Below the pieces are notes generated by a model that saw only the letters and a program-made list of their open reading frames with translations, made no database searches and was not told where the DNA came from. A stretch of DNA of 64,000 nt, from the NCBI RefSeq assembly GCF_053078305.1, contig NZ_CP166879.1. One strand, given 5' to 3'. Position numbers and translations under genes: made by a program. Shown here piece after piece: positions 3,800 to 41,892 of the stretch. Every line of letters begins with the position of its first letter. Position 1 is the stretch's first letter.

Positions 3800-3945
3800 T
3801 GTTTGCCGGATGTGATGACGCATCTTAGCCTGCCTGCAAAGAGTACTTTTCCTGTGGGCCGGATAAGGCGTTCACGCCGCATCCGGCGGCGGTGCCCTAA
3901 TGCCTGATGCGACGCTAAACGCGTCTTATCAGGCCAACAAACGAC
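3800..3945. repeat. REP/BIME palindromic units in cbpM-torD intergenic region
   Basis: GCCGGATAAGGCGTTCACGCCGCATCCGGC and TGCCTGATGCGACGCTAAACGCGTCTTATCAGGCC type palindromes. Confidence 0.7.
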
Positions 3946-14498: not shown

Positions 14499-14671
14499 GG
14501 TCAGTGCGTATTTGTAGCGCGACGTTATCAAAGGTGATCATCGTCGATTTACAAAAAATACACTTAGCGCCCAAAGGGTTTCGCTCCGTCACATCGAATG
14601 CCGATGTGCGGTACTGTGAACCATGACAACATGGACAGCGAAAATGGAGATGTTGAGTAATAACGGCAACC

Positions 14672-14884
14672 TTAGAGCGTAACTACGTTCGCTGCCGCGG
14701 GGCCACGTTGCCCCTGCTCAATAGAAAATTCAACTTTCTGATTTTCGTTCAGCGTGCGGAATTCATTGCTCTGGATGGCGGTGAAATGGACGAAAACGTC
14801 TTTGCTGCCATCATCAGGAGTGATAAAGCCAAAACCTTTATCTGCGTTAAACCATTTTACTAAACCAGTCATTTTATTAGACAT
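14672..14884 (-). CDS. cspG: cold shock protein CspG
   Basis: 70 aa [34 protein letters not shown]. Confidence 0.95.
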
Positions 14885-15169
14885 ATTTTACTTCCTTCAT
14901 TTTGGGCCTTTCGGCAAACAGGGCTTTAATACAGAAACTACTTAGTGTTCAGGAGAGAGACTCAAAAGAAGGGGATAATGCCTGATAATGAGAACTGCTT
15001 TAGTAAACTACTTTGTATGCTGTCTGTCTTTCAAACCGACGCAGCTATTAACGCATGATAATTGAGATTAAGCAAATTTTATTTTAGCCGTCCGGCGGTC
15101 TTAAATATCGCTGGCTTTATTTTATTAACCCCGTATAGTGCAGCGCAGTATTTTCAGTAAGGAATTTGT

Positions 15170-15382: not shown

Positions 15383-15823
15383 TATGACGCTGCTTGTTTA
15401 AAGCTGACTGGTTTTATTGGCATAGTTCAATAGTCAACACCATGTATTATAACACAAGTTACTTTTTCACCGGAAAACTAATCCATTTAACCGAATATCT
15501 CTACAACTAATAGTTATAAATGCCACTTAACAGCGAGTTATAGTACCACTTGAAACTATATTGCCAACAATAGTTAATAGCTTTCTTAACAATTTTCTTA
15601 TCTTTAATTTGTATTTTGCTAAGATTTATCTTATGCTCACAAGTCGTATTTCCAGAGGGAAATCGTTAACAATCTTATATTTCCCTCTGCGCGCCTTTCC
15701 CACCCGCAGTATATAGTGCTGGCGGTATGAGGAAAGGGAGATTTCACAAGGATGTTATACTCAAAGTAGATAATCCTGATCTCAAGCGTACGTATTGTCC
15801 ATGCGATGAATAAAGGAAAAGTT

Positions 15824-33859: not shown

Positions 33860-33947
33860 GGAAGTGTGGCCGAGCGGTTGAAGGCACCGGTCTTGAAAAC
33901 CGGCGACCCGAAAGGGTTCCAGAGTTCGAATCTCTGCGCTTCCGCCA
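33860..33947 (+). tRNA. serT: tRNA-Ser (anticodon UGA), serT
   Basis: GGAAGTGTGGCCGAGCGGTTGAAGGCACCGGTCTTGAAAACCGGCGACCCGAAAGGGTTCCAGAGTTCGAATCTCTGCGCTTCCGCCA; long variable arm; CTTGAAA anticodon loop. Confidence 0.93.
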
Positions 33948-35293: not shown

Positions 35294-37012
35294 TTATAAT
35301 GGAAAATACTCAAACCCCGAAGCTCCTGACGACACATACTCACCCACGCTGACTGTACGCCACTGAGAACCATCAAATGTCACCTGAAGCGGCCTGTAAG
35401 AAACCGATATCACACCATCTGCTCCTCTACTTTTCAGACCAGTAATCACAGCTCCTATACTCAGGCTTATTGACAGAAAACCAGAGCTCTCTTCTGCTCT
35501 GTAAGTCTGTTCATTACCCAGCCTGATACCCACAACCCGGCTCTTCCCGTCTGATGCCCCGGGCGGCCCCATCGGCCCGGTTTCTCCACGCTCACCTCTG
35601 GGACCGGGGTCGCCTTTCTCCCCTTTCGGTCCCTGCGCTCCCCGCGGACCAGCGGGGCCTGTTGCTCCCGTTTCACCTTTCGGACCCTGTGCTCCGGGGT
35701 CACCTTTCTCTCCTTTCGGACCGGGAACACCACCTCCTGCTGCAGCCTCTTCTGCCTTTGTTTTCGCTTCATTTGCCACATCCATTGCCGCCTTCACGGC
35801 CTTCGGCGTGGCTGCCTTTGTTTCGTCATTACTGCCAGTATCACTGCTTAACTGCACCACACCTTTCTGCGTCGTGCTGGCATCCCGCTGGCTGACCGTA
35901 TCCGGTTTGTTTTTTGTGCTGTAATCCACCCGCCAGTGGAAATACCGTGTGTCGCCGTAAACCGTACAGGTACAGACCGTGCCATTAATAAACCCCGTTG
36001 CACCGTATTCGCCAATGGTGACCCGGACTATGGCAGCCTCATACGTTCCCATCACCTCAATGACACAGCCACCCAGATTGAGTTTTCCCGGTCCGACATC
36101 CGTGATGACTTTATTCATTGACGCAAGCAGTGATGCCTTCATCATCCAGTAAGGCTGGTCAAATGCCCCTTTTTCTTTCAGCCAGGCAACAAACTCGCGT
36201 GTTTTCCATTCACCGGCCCCCGTATGAATGTCCCGCCCGTATACTCTGGCTGCTCCCACGGTGTTCAGAAACTTCACCTTATCCGGGATATCATCACCGT
36301 TTTTCGCTTTCTCCAGGCATCCGTCCGCTTTGTCCATTGCCGCTTTCACCGCTTTCGGCGTGGCTGCCTTCGTTTCATCATCACTGTCCGTTGCGCTGCT
36401 TAACTGCACAATTCCCTTCTGTGCCGTCGTCGCATCCGGCCCTCCCGGCTCGCCTTTTTCGCCCTTCTCTCCCCGTTCACCTTTCACACCCTGAAGCCCC
36501 TGTGGTCCTGTCTCACCACGCTCACCCTTTGGCCCCCGCTCGCCGGTATCGCCTTTTGGCCCGGGAATACCCTGCGGCCCGGTGTCCCCCTTATCCCCCT
36601 TCGGTCCCCGCGCATTCTCTGCCCGTTTCTTCGCTTCCTCTGCACTCGCCGCTGACGCTTCCGCACGTTTCAGGATTTCCGCTGCCACCGCTTCCAGCTC
36701 TGCAAGGGCTTTCGGGTAATACTGTGCGTCTTCCAGGTCCATCAGAAATTTATTCAGCGTTCCCGGTGCAGAATCCGCCTTCACCAGAATGTCACCCACA
36801 TATGACGGCGCGTACCCTTCCGTGTTCAGCGTCACCCGGTACAACCCCGGCTCAACATCCATACTGTAACTGCCGGTTTCCCCCGGCTGACCATACGCCA
36901 CCGTGGTGACAATCACCATCTCCGTTGTGCGGCGCGCTTTCAGCTCTATCGTGCATCCCGGTACTGGTTTTCCCGTACCATCCTTCAGCACACCCGATAT
37001 TCTGACTGTCAT
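35294..37012 (-). CDS. stf: side tail fiber protein Stf with collagen-like repeats
   Basis: 572 aa; N-terminus [28 protein letters not shown] resembles lambda Stf; two G-X-Y repeat blocks; duplicated KGIVQLSS...[15 protein letters not shown] motif. Confidence 0.88.
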
Positions 37013-37154: not shown

Positions 37155-37295
37155 TTACTGCTTACACTGTAAGAACGCCGCAATCTCCGCGCCCGCTATC
37201 CGGAACCGGAACTCGCACAGTGAACTGTGGGTGATCCAGATAATGAGCACTACCGTGATACAAATCACGGTGGTTTTTAACGGTTTTTGCGACAT
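37155..37295 (-). CDS. Hok/Gef-family small membrane toxin (46 aa)
   Basis: Hand translation MSQKPLKTTVICITVVLIIWITHSSLCEFRFRIAGAEIAAFLQCKQ; AAGGAG SD 8 nt upstream; TM helix then LCE.R.R..G.EIAAF motif; coordinates approximate. Confidence 0.6.
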   Translation of the reverse strand: MSQKPLKTTVICITVVLIIWITHSSLCEFRFRIAGAEIAAFLQCKQ

Positions 37296-37493
37296 AAACG
37301 CTTGCTCCTTTTACGGAGAGGCGCTAACCTTCAATTTGCTGAAGATCGAAAGTCAGGCCTCGGGTTAAACATGAATGTTTGTCCGGGGCCTTCGTCTTTC
37401 CGGCCTTCAGGTGTTCCCTCCGGCCATCAGCCAAAGGCACCCGCGCATACTGTACGGTTTTTGTCTCCTTCCGGCAATCCCGGGGCGCGATGT

Positions 37494-40400
37494 TCAACTG
37501 ATGCCGATCCCCGCCGTGGATTTTTTCATGACCACAACCAGTAAATCACTGATGTATGTTGTCGGCGTCCAGTGGTTCACCCCGTTCGACCACACATTAA
37601 ACGTCAGGGTCACATGACCCCGTCCTGCTGGCATATCAATGACGGACGAAAACACCCGGGTGACATCCGTTGCCGGCTGATGAAAAATTACCCTTCCGTT
37701 CATCTGCACCTGTAACTGACACGTGGAATACCATGTTGAAGTGTGATCTTTGCTGGACTGGTGCTCATGTCTCGCCCCCCGGAACAGCACCGGTGGAATG
37801 ATAATCTGCCGGTCGAAGCCCTGGTCATCGTAAACCGTGACGGTTATCGTGCCACTGGCATAACTGTTATTCCGGGGAAAGGCTTTCCCCACCGTCTTCA
37901 CCAGATCGCCTTCAATCTGGTTCGCAGACAGTTTCCCTCTGATGACACAGTTCTCGTTAATGGTGACATTATTGAGCGTGCCGCTATTCGCTGTGACAGC
38001 TCCACTGATGTCCGCATTGCGGGCCGTCAGCCTGCCCTCCGGCGTCAGGGAGAACGTCGGGGGATTGCCGGACGAGGTGATGCTCACTGCAAACAGTCGC
38101 TTCAGGAACACATCGTTCATGAACAGCTGATTCCCCTGCGCCACAAACAGCGGCGTGGTGTTGCCGTTCTCCGGGTTAATCATCGCGATACGGTCCGCCT
38201 GCAGCAGAATATTGCTCAGGGGCTGGCCATCAGCATCCTCAATCCCCGCACCTATACCGGCAACATACGGAATGCCGTTTTTCGTTTTCTGCACCTTCAG
38301 CATATACAGCGCAGCCAGGTCGTTATTTGTGTCTGTCTGCACCCGCTGTATCTGCTGTATGGTGGCACTCTGGTCTTCCAGGGTTTTACTGACCGTCTGC
38401 GTGATTTCATTGCGGGTTTCGGTGATGGTGGTCTTCATCTCCGCCATCTCATCGTCAAGCTGGCTGTTATCAATCAGCTCCCACATCCCCTGTGCCAGAT
38501 GTGTCTTCCCGATTTCTCCTCTGAAAAAGTCCAGATACCCTTCCGCATCATTGCTCGCCCGGCCACTGGCTTCCACAAACGCAGATTTCCCCACCAGGTT
38601 GACGCTGCGCACATAAAACCAGAAATCCTTCCCCGGCTTGATGTGCGGGCCGGAGACGCTCCACTGGCTGCCTGTCCCCAGATAACGGGCAGAGGTTTCC
38701 ACCTGAGATGTGTCTGCGATTTTTGCCTCCGAGAACCAGAACTCAAACTGTACCGTCGGGTCATACACCGCCAGCACCGGTACTGCTGTTATCTGATAAT
38801 ACCCCGGCGTCAGCTCAATGCTGGCCGGTGCTGCAGGCGCATTAATCCGGAACGCGGTGGTGGCAGGTTCGCCCTGCTGGCCGTAGCTGTTTATCGCCCT
38901 GACCGTCAGGGTGTATTCCCCCAGAGGCAGGCCACTGAAACGGTGCTCCGTGTCGGCAGTGATGGCGGTGGTCACCAGGCGGCTGTTTTCACCGTTTCCG
39001 CTGGTCAGGCGCAGACTGAAGCGCACGCCCTTCACCACCCGCGGCGTGTCCCATTTCGCCAGCGCCAGATACTGGCCGTCTGAGGCACTCACCTCCACCG
39101 TGAGGTGCTGCACTGCCGGCGGGATAACGCTGTTCAGTGAACCGGACAGCGGCTCAAAGCGAGCCCCGTTATCCACAATGGCTTCTTTTTCCGGTACGTG
39201 CTGCACTGCCGTGATGGCAAAAGTGCCGTCCGTGTTTTCCCGGATGGAAACACAGCGGAACAGGCGACGACGCAGTGACGGCAGGGAGAGTCCCCACACA
39301 CCGTATGTCTCCACGCCATCCGGCAGGGCGCTGACCTGTATCCGGTCCGGCGCGGGGTGTGCAGTGATGTCCACGCGCACCGGCTTACCGCTGCCGTTAA
39401 TCAGGTTCACCGTCGATGTCCCTGCTTCCGGCAGTGTCACCTCACGGTCCAGCGTCAGTGTGCGGCTGGCGGCATCAATGGACAGGATGCGTCCGCCGGT
39501 CAGGGTCCCGGCATAGTCGTTATCACAGATTTCAATGATGTCACCGGGCGTATGCCGCAGCCCCTGTGACCCGAGCGTGAAATCCACCGTCTGCGTTTCC
39601 AGCAGTTCGGTCTTTATCACCCACAGTCCGGCACGGTGGGCCTGACCGCGGCTGGTACAGCCAAACGCATCCATCTTCAGCAGGTTGCGTCCGTAGCGCA
39701 GGATGGCGTCCGGGTCTTCCACCAGTTCCGTGGAGGTCTGCCAGCCGTTCTGCGGGTCGGTGTAATTCACCTCCACCGCCGTGTGCCGGTCCTTCAGGGC
39801 ACTGAAGCTGTAGCGGAACCCCACGCCGTTATCATCCACCACCACATCGCTGTTGGTGTACGGCCACACCACATCCGACGGACGGTCCTGAACGAACGTC
39901 AGCGTCTGGCCGTTCCATACCGGCATACAGCGCATCGCCGAGCAGAAATCCCCCAGGACATCCCACACCTTACGCTGCTGTGACAGGTACGCATTGAAAG
40001 TCATCCGCGGCTCTGTTCCCCCGAAACCATCCGGGACCGTCTGGTCGCAGTACTGCCCGATGGCATACAGTGCCCACTTGTCCACATCCGCGGCCCCCAG
40101 GCGTTTTCCCATGCCGTAGCGCGGGTGGGTCAGCATGTCCCACAGGCACCAGGCCGGGTTATTGCTGTATGCCGGTTTCAGACTCCCGTCCCAGATACCG
40201 CTGTAGGTGCGTTTTTCCGGGTCATAGTTTGACGGCACCTGAATGATGCGACCACGGATATGGTAGTTCACCGTCAGCTGCTGGCCACCAAACTGCTCCG
40301 CATCCACCTGCAGCCCCACAATGGCCGTGTTCGGGTAGCACTGTTTCACATCGATGATTTCGGTGTATGACGACCACAGCGTTCTGTTCTGCAGCTGGTC

Positions 40401-40970
40401 CGTGGTGCTGTCCGCCGTCTCCCTGACCATCCGGATGTTAAAGGGGCGCTCAGGGAGATTATTCAGAATCACAGACGTCAGGTACTGCGAGGTGGTCTTG
40501 CCGTTAATGGTGATATCCTTCTCCGTCACCCAGTGCCCGTTACGCTCAAGCTGAATCAGCAGGCGGACAGAAGAGGGATTACGGTCACCCTTTGAGGTGG
40601 TCTCCACCAGTGACTGCACCCCGAAGGTGACCCGCAGACGGTCAATGTTCGCTGACGTGATGGTGCGCGTCACCGGCTTTGCCTTCGTCACCTCCACGCC
40701 CAGTGCGGTTTCTGCCCCGGAGGACTCAAAGCCTTCCGGCGGTGTCTGCTCCTGCTCCCCGGCGCGCCAGACGGCGGTCACACCGTGTATCACGGGATTA
40801 CCGTCCGTGTCCGTCAGCGGGGTTTTGTTCACCAGAATACTCTGCAGTCCCTTCACCGGACCTTCCACCGGTCCCTCACCAATGGCATCAATCACGCTCA
40901 TCATCTGCGTGGATTTGAGATTGTCCTTCGCCTCACGCGGTGTGTGCCCCTTGCCGCCCCCTTTACCCAC
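37494..40970 (-). CDS. J: tail tip / host specificity protein J
   Basis: About 1158 aa from GTG ([37 protein letters not shown]), collinear with lambda gpJ throughout; track ORF extends 17 codons upstream. Confidence 0.92.
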
Positions 40971-41007
40971 TCTGCCCCCCTCTCCTGTCTGATGTCTGAA
41001 TCTGTTT

Positions 41008-41045
41008 ATGCCCAAAAACAACAGGCACCCCGGAGGGTGCCTGTG
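41008..41045 (-). terminator. intrinsic terminator-like hairpin upstream of J
   Basis: Minus strand CAGGCACCC-TCCG-GGGTGCCTG followed by TTGTTTTTGGG. Confidence 0.5.
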
Positions 41046-41165
41046 TCATGACGGAATAAAATTTCTGAAATTCTTCACATTTCCGGCAATTGCCTGTAGC
41101 CGCAATAATGACGCTGCGTTACTTTTTTGATGCCTGAAAAATAACTCCATAAAGTTAATCTTCAT
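41046..41165 (-). CDS. hypothetical 39-aa protein in an AT-rich insert between I and J
   Basis: MKINFMELFFRHQKSNAASLLRLQAIAGNVKNFRNFIPS with GGGAGAG SD; AT-rich relative to flanking genes. Confidence 0.35.
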   Translation of the reverse strand: MKINFMELFFRHQKSNAASLLRLQAIAGNVKNFRNFIPS

Positions 41166-41211
41166 CGTTCTCTCCCGCAGCTCCACTAACTCTGCGGGAT
41201 TTTTTTTATTT

Positions 41212-41892
41212 TTATCCCCGCCCGATAACCACCACTTTCCCGTCTCCGCCCTCATCACGGGTGCTGATGTCCTGGGATATCCGTCGTGAACCAACCAGCA
41301 TTTCACCGTAAGGCACCGGCATCGGGTTACCCTGGGCAATCATGTTGTCCAGTGACGAAAAATACGTGTTCTGTTTACCGTTATCCGTACTTTTATACTC
41401 CGGCGTCTTTGCCTTCGGGGCCAGCATCTGAGCCACACCACCCAGTATCATGCTGGCACCCAGTGAGAACAGCATCGTGGTGGCAGTCAGCCCTCCGGCA
41501 CTCAGGGCTGCGCCCCATGCCGCCAGTGTTGCACCACCAGTGAAAAATGACCCGACAATCGCTGCAACCCCCAGCACCACCTGAAAAACACCATTTCCCC
41601 CGGCTCCGGCCAGCCGCGGTACAATATGAATCACGGCCCTCCCGCTCAGTGGCTCATGAAGACGGGCATACACCGCCTCCGGCGCGGTATCCTCACCGGC
41701 AATACGTATCTGATACCAGCCTTCGTTCATCTGACCGCGGAATCCCGGCACCTGCAGCGACAGGGCACGGATGGCCTCCGCTGCCGTGTTCACATACAGG
41801 CTGATGCGGCGACCAAATCGTTGTAAATCCCCGTGAAGGCAGATGCGGACCAGTGGCGGTGACGCCAGACAGAATGCGTTCGTCGTTGCCAT
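41212..41892 (-). CDS. I: tail assembly protein I
   Basis: 226 aa MATTNAFCLASPPLVRICLHGDLQRFGRRISL..., lambda gpI-like; overlaps K by about 100 nt as in lambda. Confidence 0.9.
   Translation of the reverse strand: MATTNAFCLASPPLVRICLHGDLQRFGRRISLYVNTAAEAIRALSLQVPGFRGQMNEGWYQIRIAGEDTAPEAVYARLHEPLSGRAVIHIVPRLAGAGGNGVFQVVLGVAAIVGSFFTGGATLAAWGAALSAGGLTATTMLFSLGASMILGGVAQMLAPKAKTPEYKSTDNGKQNTYFSSLDNMIAQGNPMPVPYGEMLVGSRRISQDISTRDEGGDGKVVVIGRG

What the first reader, a model, noticed from the sequence alone, without database searches (positions are those of the whole stretch)
41008..41211. AT-rich insert with a 39-aa ORF and a terminator between tail genes I and J
The I-J gap is about 240 nt here, whereas I recall about 60 nt in lambda. 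It contains an A-run plus hairpin, an AT-rich 39-aa ORF with a GGAG-type SD, and a canonical hairpin plus U-tract just upstream of the J ribosome-binding site. This gene-plus-terminator layout resembles a moron insertion in the middle of the tail operon.
Basis: partly seen in the sequence, partly recalled or inferred. Interest (0 to 1): 0.4.

Follow-up and report, generated by a model that had tools for sequence, protein, structure and literature searches.

The report
Known prophage small RNA between tail genes
The extra 180 bases between tail genes I and J hold not a small-protein gene but a known Hfq-binding small RNA gene (EcOnc22/PasB family) on the opposite strand, so the finding is real but largely explained.

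Summary
The I-J gap is 241 nt (40971-41211), against 60 nt in lambda. It is AT-rich and holds an A-run plus hairpin, a 39-aa ORF with a GGGAGAG Shine-Dalgarno, and a hairpin plus U-tract before the J ribosome-binding site.

The reading as a protein-coding moron does not hold. The spacer is 96.7% identical to the I-J gap of VT1-Sakai (Sp15). There, Tree et al. 2014 detected EcOnc22, an ~85-nt, Hfq-dependent sRNA. Their northern probe matches window 41154-41176 and detects the strand opposite the tail genes. The EPEC sRNA PasB (83 nt) lies at the same place and in the same orientation.

The "A-run plus hairpin" is therefore the intrinsic terminator of an sRNA gene on the + strand, predicted at 41116-41207.

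The 39-aa ORF is intact in only about a third of 40 related spacer variants. It shows no third-codon-position bias and matches no protein family. Lambda has its own hairpin plus U-tract before J, so that element is not part of the insertion.

Additional observations: a conserved CRP-like box lies upstream of the promoter, the sRNA has a variable stretch near its 5' end, and some phages carry 2-3 tandem cassettes. Verdict: already known, modest interest.

The parts
41116..41207 (+). Predicted sRNA gene of the EcOnc22-24 / PasB family, at most 92 nt. Sequence: GCGUUACUUUUUUGAUGCCUGAAAAAUAACUCCAUAAAGUUAAUCUUCAUCGUUCUCUCCCGCAGCUCCACUAACUCUGCGGGAUUUUUUUU.
   Evidence: The first 23 nt of the Tree 2014 northern probe for EcOnc22/23/24 match the minus strand at 41154-41176 exactly, so the probe detects a plus-strand RNA. 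The locus is 96.7% identical to Sakai Sp15. PasB maps to the same position and orientation in E2348/69. The 5' end is inferred from the conserved -10 box and the conserved GCGTTA start. MFE is -20.9 kcal/mol, z = -4.3.
41173..41207 (+). Intrinsic terminator of the sRNA: stem UCCCGCAG/CUGCGGGA, 11-nt loop, U8. It abuts the I stop codon (41212-41214).
   Evidence: unique in the window, 0 expected by chance. In 28 variants all 7 stem pairs are kept, and one pair changes G-C to A-U on both sides in 2 sequences. The loop sequence varies.
41104..41109 (+). Predicted -10 box AATAAT. It is TATAAT in most family members. The -35 is weak here (TTCCGG at 41081-41086) but is TTCACA in other variants.
   Evidence: The -10 box lines up at the same place in nearly all aligned variants, 7 nt upstream of the conserved GCGTTA. 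The generic promoter scan did not flag it. The assignment is an inference.
41061..41082 (.). Conserved CRP-like box, read on the minus strand as AAATGTGA-AGAATT-TCAGAAAT (TGTGA-N6-TCAGA). Its centre at 41071.5 is -44.5 from the predicted sRNA start.
   Evidence: The box is present in 45 of 48 related gaps, once per cassette in arrays. The half-sites are constant while the N6 spacer varies. It is one of the most conserved blocks of the spacer (mean identity 0.91). In the window it occurs once, against 0.09 expected. CRP binding was not tested.
41128..41140 (+). Variable stretch in the 5' half of the sRNA, just after the conserved GCGUUAC-U-run start. It differs between phage lineages.
   Evidence: Mean identity to the window is 0.57, against 0.82-0.91 for neighbouring blocks.
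41046..41165 (-). The 39-aa ORF (stop codon included), with GGGAGAG 6 nt upstream. It is probably not a gene. Its Shine-Dalgarno and ATG are the complement of the sRNA's CU-rich pre-terminator stretch (CAUCGUUCUCUCCC).
   Evidence: Searches give the ORF. It is intact in about 14 of 40 variants and otherwise frameshifted, truncated or lacking ATG. There is no third-position excess and no Pfam or PHROG family.
41011..41044 (-). Tail-sense hairpin ACAGGCACCC-UCCG-GGGUGCCUGU plus UGUUUUUGGG, just upstream of the J ribosome-binding site.
   Evidence: terminator scan; -21.4 kcal/mol. It is conserved, with a C:G to U:A change on both sides in many variants. Lambda has an analogous hairpin plus U-tract in its 60-nt gap.
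40968..40985 (-). J ribosome-binding site (GGAGAGGGGGG, 40985-40975) and GTG start codon (40970-40968).
   Evidence: The start matches the annotated J start in Sakai Sp15 and aligns with lambda J.

Best explanation
The I-J spacer carries an independently transcribed small-RNA gene on the strand opposite the tail genes. It belongs to the prophage sRNA family described as EcOnc22/23/24 in EHEC O157 Sakai and as PasB in EPEC E2348/69.

Proposed course of events: a sigma-70 promoter (-10 AATAAT at 41104-41109, preceded by a conserved CRP-like box at 41061-41082) starts transcription near 41116. The RNA runs about 85-92 nt and ends at an intrinsic terminator (41173-41207) that abuts the I stop codon. 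In a lysogen the RNA binds Hfq through its U-rich stretches and 3' hairpin plus U-tail, and base-pairs with host and prophage mRNAs in trans. Different phage lineages carry different sequences in a stretch near the 5' end.

The 39-aa ORF on the tail-sense strand is a by-product. Its 'Shine-Dalgarno plus ATG' is the complement of the sRNA's CU-rich, anti-RBS-like segment just upstream of the terminator.

The hairpin plus U-tract before J is an intercistronic element of the late operon that lambda also has. It is presumably read through by Q-modified polymerase during lytic growth.

Shown for close homologues: the RNA exists, its strand, its size, Hfq binding and Hfq dependence.
Inferred here: the 5' end, the promoter, CRP control, trans-action of this particular copy, and read-through of the pre-J hairpin.
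For: Identity with EcOnc22:
- The spacer is 96.7% identical to the VT1-Sakai/Sp15 I-J gap.
- Tree 2014 Table S2 lists EcOnc22 (Sp15), EcOnc23 (Sp14) and EcOnc24 (Sp11) as Hfq-crosslinked peaks. EcOnc22 runs at ~85 nt on northern blots and is destabilised in a hfq deletion.
- All three peaks fall in I-J gaps of Sakai, on the strand opposite the tail genes.
- The table uses NC_002695.1 coordinates. Calibrating on AgvB gives an offset of about +140 to version 2, which places the Hfq peak at about window 41131-41200.
- The first 23 nt of the published northern probe, GGGAGAGAACGATGAAGATTAAC..., equal the window's minus strand at 41154-41176, so the probe detects a plus-strand RNA.

Identity with PasB:
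- PasB is at NC_011601 1466343-1466261 (-), 83 nt, validated by northern and Hfq-dependent, with 37 RIL-seq interactions. It lies between I (ends 1466255) and J (starts 1466496), antisense to both.
- It aligns with the window spacer.

Conservation pattern fits an sRNA gene:
- The terminator stem and U-tract are invariant or change on both sides of a pair.
- The -10 box and GCGTTA start are conserved, and one internal stretch near the 5' end is variable.
- The family is in 1117 of 5426 complete E. coli genomes.
- In some phages the whole cassette (box, promoter, sRNA, terminator) is repeated 2-3 times in tandem.

CRP idea:
- TGTGA-N6-TCAGA has constant half-sites and a varying spacer.
- PasB is higher in overnight LB than in DMEM, whereas Spf is about 5-fold higher in DMEM than in LB. 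Spf is repressed by CRP-cAMP (established knowledge), so the opposite behaviour of PasB would fit CRP activation.
Against: No expression data exist for this strain. The window copy differs from Sakai EcOnc22 at 3 substitutions within the sRNA, one extra U in the tail, and 1 base in the box spacer.

The -35 is poor in this variant, and the generic promoter scan found nothing on either strand.

The published PasB 5' end, estimated from RNA-seq coverage, is 15 nt downstream of the start I predict from the promoter. The 5' end is therefore uncertain, or the RNA is processed.

The CRP-like box is centred at -44.5, which is out of register with the classical -41.5 or -61.5 positions. One half-site is imperfect.

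No target or phenotype is known for EcOnc22-24.

About a third of variants keep a 38-41-aa ORF despite indels, so occasional translation is not excluded.
Confidence: 0.85

Rival explanations
1. Protein-coding moron. A minus-strand unit made of a promoter within the 3' end of I, the GGGAGAG Shine-Dalgarno, the 39-aa ORF and the terminator at 41044-41011 expresses a small protein in the lysogen.
For: A strong Shine-Dalgarno with good spacing, an ATG, an in-frame 39 codons and a canonical terminator 1 nt after the stop codon. Several diverged variants keep a 38-41-aa ORF with the same N- and C-terminal residues. One phage record annotates a hypothetical protein here.
Against: The ORF is broken in about 26 of 40 variants and is a 22-aa stub at the E2348/69 PasB locus. 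Variation by codon position is 0.18/0.26/0.20, so there is no synonymous-site excess. There is no Pfam or PHROG family. No minus-strand promoter was found. It is not among the Sakai intergenic ORFs reported as translated, judged by a coordinate search, which is weak evidence. The conserved ORF ends coincide with elements that have other explanations: the sRNA's 3' part and the CRP-like box.
Confidence: 0.06
2. Type I toxin-antitoxin-like pair. The 39-aa ORF is a toxin or regulatory peptide whose ribosome-binding site and start codon are masked by the overlapping antisense sRNA.
For: The geometry fits: the sRNA is fully complementary to the Shine-Dalgarno, the ATG and the first ~16 codons. A genuine hok/sok locus lies only 3.6 kb away, downstream of J.
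Against: The peptide is not hydrophobic or membrane-like. The ORF is not conserved. The sRNA homologues behave as trans-acting Hfq sRNAs with many partners.
Confidence: 0.03
3. Mainly cis-acting spacer. The sRNA and the two hairpins tune the late operon itself. Possible routes are antisense pairing with the I-J junction of the late transcript leading to RNase III processing, transcriptional interference, or partial termination before J, which would set the I:J ratio or silence J in lysogens.
For: The sRNA is perfectly complementary to the late mRNA. The pre-J hairpin plus U-tract is conserved, with compensatory change, and lambda has one too. The location is fixed between I and J in all family members.
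Against: Lambda manages with a 60-nt gap and no sRNA. The cassette number varies from 1 to 3. Homologues are expressed and Hfq-bound in uninduced lysogens, where late mRNA is scarce. Predicted pairing of the sRNA with the J initiation region is no better than for shuffled sRNA.
Confidence: 0.15

Closest known systems
EcOnc22 / EcOnc23 / EcOnc24 (Tree et al. 2014, EHEC O157:H7 Sakai prophages Sp15, Sp14, Sp11)
   Same: Same locus (I-J gap), same strand relative to the tail genes, 96.7% identical spacer. The first 23 nt of the northern probe match exactly. Size is ~85 nt against a predicted 85-92 nt.
   Different: There are 3 substitutions in the sRNA, one extra U in the tail, and 1 change in the box spacer. 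Nothing is known about function for either copy.
PasB (Pearl Mizrahi et al. 2021; Zhu, Shabalina and Storz 2026 preprint), EPEC E2348/69 prophage PP6
   Same: Same position and orientation between I and J. Same terminator stem, pre-terminator region, start motif GCGUUA, -10 box and upstream box.
   Different: The 5' half differs (GCGUUACUUUUUUGAUGCCUGAAAAAUAACUCC here, GCGUUAGUGUUUUUUUGCCCGAGUAACAAAAACAACUCC in PasB), as do parts of the pre-terminator region. PasB has a consensus TATAAT and a TTCACA -35, whereas the window has AATAAT and a weak -35. Table S6 of the 2021 paper gives no EcOnc homologue for PasB.
AgvB / AsxR / EcOnc03 anti-sRNAs at the PR' moron site of Stx-type prophages
   Same: Prophage-encoded, Hfq-dependent short sRNAs with a conserved 3' part and a lineage-variable 5' part. 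They are multi-copy in EHEC.
   Different: Different locus (downstream of Q/PR', not in the tail operon), no sequence similarity, and no Rfam AgvB or AsxR hit in the spacer.
Phage lambda I-J intergenic region
   Same: Same flanking genes. Both have a tail-sense GC-rich hairpin plus U-tract shortly before the J ribosome-binding site.
   Different: Lambda's gap is 60 nt and has no sRNA cassette. The hairpin sequences are unrelated.
Classical lambdoid morons (bor, lom, stx) and hok/sok type I toxin-antitoxin loci
   Same: Extra, AT-rich, self-contained transcription unit inside a late operon (moron-like). There is an antisense RNA over an RBS and start codon (hok/sok-like geometry).
   Different: The cargo is an RNA on the opposite strand, not a protein. 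The overlapped ORF is not conserved and is not Hok-like.

Membership tests
EcOnc22-24 / PasB prophage sRNA family | Gene lies in the I-J intergenic gap of a lambdoid prophage, transcribed antisense to the tail genes | tested here: met
   Window gap 40971-41211 lies between I and J. Sakai peaks and the PasB coordinates lie in the same gaps on the opposite strand.
EcOnc22-24 / PasB prophage sRNA family | Sequence homology to the experimentally detected RNAs | tested here: met
   96.7% identity to the Sp15 gap. The first 23 nt of the northern probe match exactly at 41154-41176. The spacer aligns with the PasB locus along its length; the most divergent stretch within the sRNA lies in its 5' half.
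EcOnc22-24 / PasB prophage sRNA family | 3' stem-loop followed by a U-tract (intrinsic terminator and Hfq module) | tested here: met
   8-bp stem plus U8 at 41173-41207. The stem is kept in 28 of 28 variants, with one compensatory pair.
EcOnc22-24 / PasB prophage sRNA family | Expressed as an ~83-85-nt RNA that binds Hfq and depends on it | not testable with these tools
   Shown for Sakai EcOnc22 (CRAC, northern, hfq deletion) and for PasB (northern, RIL-seq). Not shown for this strain.
Protein-coding moron | ORF conserved as a protein among relatives (intact frame, synonymous-site bias, family membership) | tested here: not met
   Intact in about 14 of 40 variants. Codon-position variation is 0.18/0.26/0.20. 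No Pfam or PHROG hit.
Protein-coding moron | Own promoter on the coding strand and own terminator | tested here: inconclusive
   A terminator is present, but lambda has an equivalent one without any ORF. No minus-strand promoter-like site was found. The scan is crude and also missed the sRNA promoter.
Type I toxin-antitoxin system | Small, conserved, usually hydrophobic toxin ORF overlapped by an antisense RNA | tested here: not met
   An antisense overlap exists. The ORF is not conserved, is not hydrophobic, and is not Hok/gef, unlike the true Hok ORF at 37155-37295.
CRP-activated promoter | 22-bp site resembling AAATGTGA-N6-TCACATTT | tested here: met
   AAATGTGAAGAATTTCAGAAAT: left half 8/8, core 9/10. 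Half-sites are constant and the spacer varies across 45 of 48 gaps.
CRP-activated promoter | Site centred at -41.5 (class II) or -61.5/-71.5 (class I) from the start | tested here: inconclusive
   The centre is at -44.5 from the start inferred from the -10 box. The true 5' end is unmapped, and the coverage-based PasB 5' end is 15 nt further downstream.
CRP-activated promoter | CRP binding and cAMP/glucose dependence | not testable with these tools
   Only circumstantial support: PasB is higher in overnight LB than in DMEM, the opposite of Spf, which CRP-cAMP represses.
Any Rfam family | Match at the curated gathering score | tested here: not met
   No hit in the spacer at gathering score. Only weak, terminator-driven sub-threshold hits were found.

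The most novel reading that the evidence does not exclude
The I-J junction of Stx-type lambdoid phages may be a dedicated slot for exchangeable 'sRNA morons'. Each cassette would consist of a CRP-like box, a promoter, an sRNA with a lineage-specific stretch near its 5' end, and a terminator. Phages would stack one to three such cassettes in tandem, giving each prophage a nutrient-responsive set of Hfq sRNAs with different specificities. The apparent RBS plus ORF on the tail-sense strand would be the mirror image of an anti-RBS pairing segment. Three of these points seem not to be stated in the papers I could read: the link between EcOnc22-24 and PasB, the tandem arrays, and the CRP-like box.
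Probability: 0.35. Interest if true: 0.5.

Novelty: already known. Interest (0 to 1): 0.3.

Why it matters
The result corrects a likely mis-annotation. Some phage records call a hypothetical protein here, while RefSeq and Rfam annotate nothing, even though the region encodes an experimentally detected Hfq sRNA found in about a fifth of complete E. coli genomes.

It links two literatures that name the same family differently: EcOnc22-24 in EHEC and PasB in EPEC.

It also offers testable leads on regulation (the CRP-like box) and evolution (the variable stretch near the 5' end and tandem cassette arrays) of prophage sRNAs that may couple pathogen physiology to prophage content. No function is known yet, so the biological weight remains modest.

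Tried and rejected
- AgvB/AsxR identity: these sRNAs lie at the PR' moron site, not in the tail operon, and Rfam gives no hit in the spacer.
- PasA, PasC and PasD identity: their sequences and loci differ. Only PasB maps to I-J.
- Taking the Table S2 coordinates at face value put the Hfq peak over the pre-J hairpin (window 40994-41054). This was wrong, because the table uses NC_002695.1. Calibration on AgvB (offset about +140) and the probe sequence corrected it.
- An attempt to calibrate the offset near 2.92 Mb with STnc100/EcOnc42 was only qualitatively consistent.
- Trans pairing of the sRNA with the J translation-initiation region: duplex energy -24.1 kcal/mol, no better than shuffled sRNA (mean -25.1), so rejected.
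- Search of the Hucker 2017 Sakai Ribo-seq supplements for an ORF at the three I-J gaps found nothing. This is weak evidence, because repeated prophage regions and truncated files may hide it.
- Sub-threshold Rfam hits (anti-hemB, NsiR9, IS009 and others) are driven by the terminators and are not meaningful.
- RNAalifold supports no conserved structure beyond the terminator. The two 5' hairpins in the single-sequence fold are therefore not claimed.
- One count of structure pairs failed on a typing error and was not repeated, because one search already gives the pair counts.

Full report
**Anatomy**

The tail genes lie on the minus strand of the window. Gene I is 41212..41892. Gene J begins with GTG at 40970, in the frame of the long ORF 37494..41021, and this start matches the annotated J start in Sakai. 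The gap is therefore 40971-41211, 241 nt. In lambda, I ends at 15444 and J starts at 15505, a 60-nt gap.

The gap has 44% G+C, against 59% in both flanking genes. Read on the tail-sense (minus) strand it contains, in order:
- an A-run;
- an 8-bp hairpin with an 11-nt loop;
- GGGAGAG, then ATG at 41165;
- a 39-codon ORF ending at 41046;
- a 10-bp GC-rich hairpin (41044-41021) followed by UGUUUUUGGG;
- the J Shine-Dalgarno.

**Relatives**

The spacer is not private to this window. Megablast finds it in 800 of 5426 complete E. coli genomes, with a median of three copies per genome. In every listed hit it lies under "tail assembly protein | gpJ". It is also in 147 phage records, mostly Stx-converting phages, and VT1-Sakai (Sp15) matches at 96.7%. 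No Rfam family reaches threshold in the spacer.

**Identification**

Tree et al. 2014 (PMC4104026) mapped Hfq crosslinking in O157 Sakai. Their Table S2 lists EcOnc22 (Sp15, 2902714-2902774, +), EcOnc23 (Sp14) and EcOnc24 (Sp11) as homologous orphan Hfq sites. EcOnc22 runs at ~85 nt on northern blots and is destabilised without Hfq.

In the current Sakai record all three positions fall in I-J gaps, on the strand opposite the tail genes. The table uses NC_002695.1 coordinates. I calibrated against AgvB, whose Rfam hit in version 2 is at 1941920-1941981 while the version 1 peak is at 1941783-1941835. This gives an offset of about +140 and places the EcOnc22 peak at about window 41131-41200.

The published northern probe for EcOnc22/23/24 settles the matter independently. 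The probe reads GGGAGAGAACGATGAAGATTAAC.... These 23 nt equal the window's minus strand at 41154-41176, so the probe detects a plus-strand RNA that runs into the hairpin at 41173-41199.

In EPEC E2348/69, PasB is annotated at NC_011601 1466343-1466261 (-), 83 nt, in prophage PP6 (Pearl Mizrahi et al. 2021, PMC8550237). That interval lies between the tail assembly gene (ends 1466255) and gpJ (starts 1466496), antisense to both. It aligns with the window spacer.

The Zhu, Shabalina and Storz 2026 preprint describes PasB as embedded in an operon of phage structural genes. Among its three representative RefSeq phages, which collectively carry PasA-D hits, it lists NC_049945. NC_049945 is one of my 96.7% hits.

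EcOnc22-24 and PasB are therefore one family, and the window holds a member nearly identical to EcOnc22. Table S6 of the 2021 paper notes EcOnc homologues for PasA and PasD but none for PasB. A full-text search for EcOnc22 found only one review, which lists its targets as unknown.

**Gene model**

I aligned the spacers of 80 related IMG/VR loci, which gave 47 unique gaps. On the antisense strand this shows:
- a conserved -10 box, TATAAT in most variants and AATAAT here at 41104-41109;
- seven bases further, a conserved start GCGTTA (41116);
- a U-run;
- a variable stretch (mean identity to the window 0.57);
- a better conserved CU-rich segment;
- an invariant terminator stem with a variable loop and a U7-9 tract.

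RNAalifold on 28 distinct variants supports only the terminator. All 7 pairs are kept and one pair changes G-C to A-U on both sides. The predicted RNA, 41116-41207, is at most 92 nt, which is compatible with ~85 nt on gels. It folds at -20.9 kcal/mol with z = -4.3.

The PasB 5' end estimated from RNA-seq coverage is 15 nt inside my promoter-based start. The exact 5' end is therefore open.

**The ORF**

Among 40 single-cassette variants, the aligned ORF is intact in about 14. Elsewhere it is frameshifted, truncated or has lost its ATG. In the E2348/69 PasB locus and its commonest relatives it is cut to 22 aa.

Variation by codon position is 0.18/0.26/0.20, so there is no synonymous-site excess. 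The peptide matches no Pfam or PHROG family. A coordinate search of the Sakai Ribo-seq small-gene supplements found nothing at the three gaps, which is weak evidence.

The residues that look conserved (MKIN.KELF at the start, NVK.FRNFIPS at the end) coincide with the sRNA's 3' segment and with the upstream box. The Shine-Dalgarno plus ATG is the complement of the sRNA's CAUCGUUCUCUCCC, the single-stranded segment that Zhu et al. propose as the PasB seed.

**The pre-J hairpin**

This hairpin is conserved, and many variants carry a C:G to U:A change on both sides of one pair. Lambda's 60-nt gap has its own hairpin plus U-tract, AAACCGCC-UGCG-GGCGGUUUUGU. This element therefore belongs to the tail operon and not to an inserted gene. 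Read-through by Q-modified polymerase is inferred from established lambda biology. It was not tested here.

**Additional observations**

1. A box AAATGTGA-N6-TCAGAAAT precedes the promoter (41061-41082).
   - It is present in 45 of 48 gaps.
   - Its half-sites are constant and its spacer varies.
   - It occurs once in the window, against 0.09 expected.
   - It resembles the CRP consensus, with 9 of 10 core bases matching.
   - It is centred at -44.5 from the inferred start, off the classical register.
   - PasB is higher in overnight LB than in DMEM, the opposite of Spf, which CRP-cAMP represses.
   - I rate CRP control at about even odds.
2. Some phages have I-J gaps of 421-425, 478-489 or 715 nt that hold two or three tandem cassettes. 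Each cassette has its own box, promoter, variable stretch and terminator. The three-cassette array is present in 42 complete genomes.
3. The 92-nt sRNA has relatives in 1117 of 5426 complete genomes and is unannotated in every listed record.

**Mechanism and verdict**

The best-supported reading is an independently transcribed, Hfq-dependent, trans-acting prophage sRNA gene sitting antisense in the I-J gap. Its terminator was mistaken for a feature of the sense strand.

The rivals are much less likely, for the reasons above:
- a protein-coding moron;
- a type I toxin-antitoxin-like pair;
- a purely cis-acting intercistronic regulator.

A cis contribution on the late transcript cannot be excluded. 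A test of pairing with the J initiation region gave nothing beyond shuffled controls.

The element is already known as EcOnc22-24 and PasB, and its function is still unknown. Interest is modest.

Noticed in passing
window 37155-37442 (-): A hok/sok type I toxin-antitoxin locus lies directly downstream of J. The Rfam sok hit is at 37284-37442 (63.5 bits, gathering score 59). A 46-aa Hok/gef ORF lies at 37155-37295 (PF01848, E = 2.4e-11). It sits between J and the tail-fibre gene.
   Followed up: partly
L013:786-1500, L022, L023, L009, L014, L020, L021 (upstream of position 1501 in each): The I-J gaps of some related phages hold two or three tandem sRNA cassettes (421-715 nt), each with its own CRP-like box and a different variable stretch. 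The 715-nt array is in 42 complete E. coli genomes. Some cassettes use a different terminator (CTCCCG...CGGGAG plus T-run).
   Followed up: partly
L089:746-805 (lambda 15445-15504): Lambda's own 60-nt I-J gap contains a tail-sense GC-rich hairpin plus U-tract (AAACCGCC-TGCG-GGCGGTTTTGT) just before the J ribosome-binding site. I did not find a described function for it.
   Followed up: no
Sakai NC_002695.1 versus NC_002695.2: Coordinates in Tree 2014 Table S2 (version 1) are about 140 nt lower than in the current RefSeq record at 1.94 Mb. Naive mapping puts the peaks on the wrong element.
   Followed up: yes
window 33860-33947 (+): A tRNA-Ser (anticodon tga) lies about 1.3 kb beyond the tail-fibre gene. 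It may mark the prophage attachment site.
   Followed up: no
window 35294-37012 (-): A 572-aa tail-fibre-like ORF has long collagen-like G-X-Y repeats (for example [37 protein letters not shown]).
   Followed up: no
window 14618-15040 (-) and 3857-3935 (+): Rfam hits at gathering score: a cspA thermoregulator (157.8 bits) and naRNA4, a REP-type element (82.5 bits).
   Followed up: no
window 41037-41171 (-): A very weak Rfam IS009 hit (9.3 bits, E = 7.9) overlaps the spacer. Zhu et al. report IS009 as a frequent structural hit near PasB, so their IS009 hits may be this same region. Not resolved.
   Followed up: no
L002 (KF030445.1) 1476-1628: Phage 1720a-02 annotates a 50-aa 'hypothetical protein' across the I stop codon and the sRNA region. 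This is probably an over-call of the non-conserved ORF.
   Followed up: no
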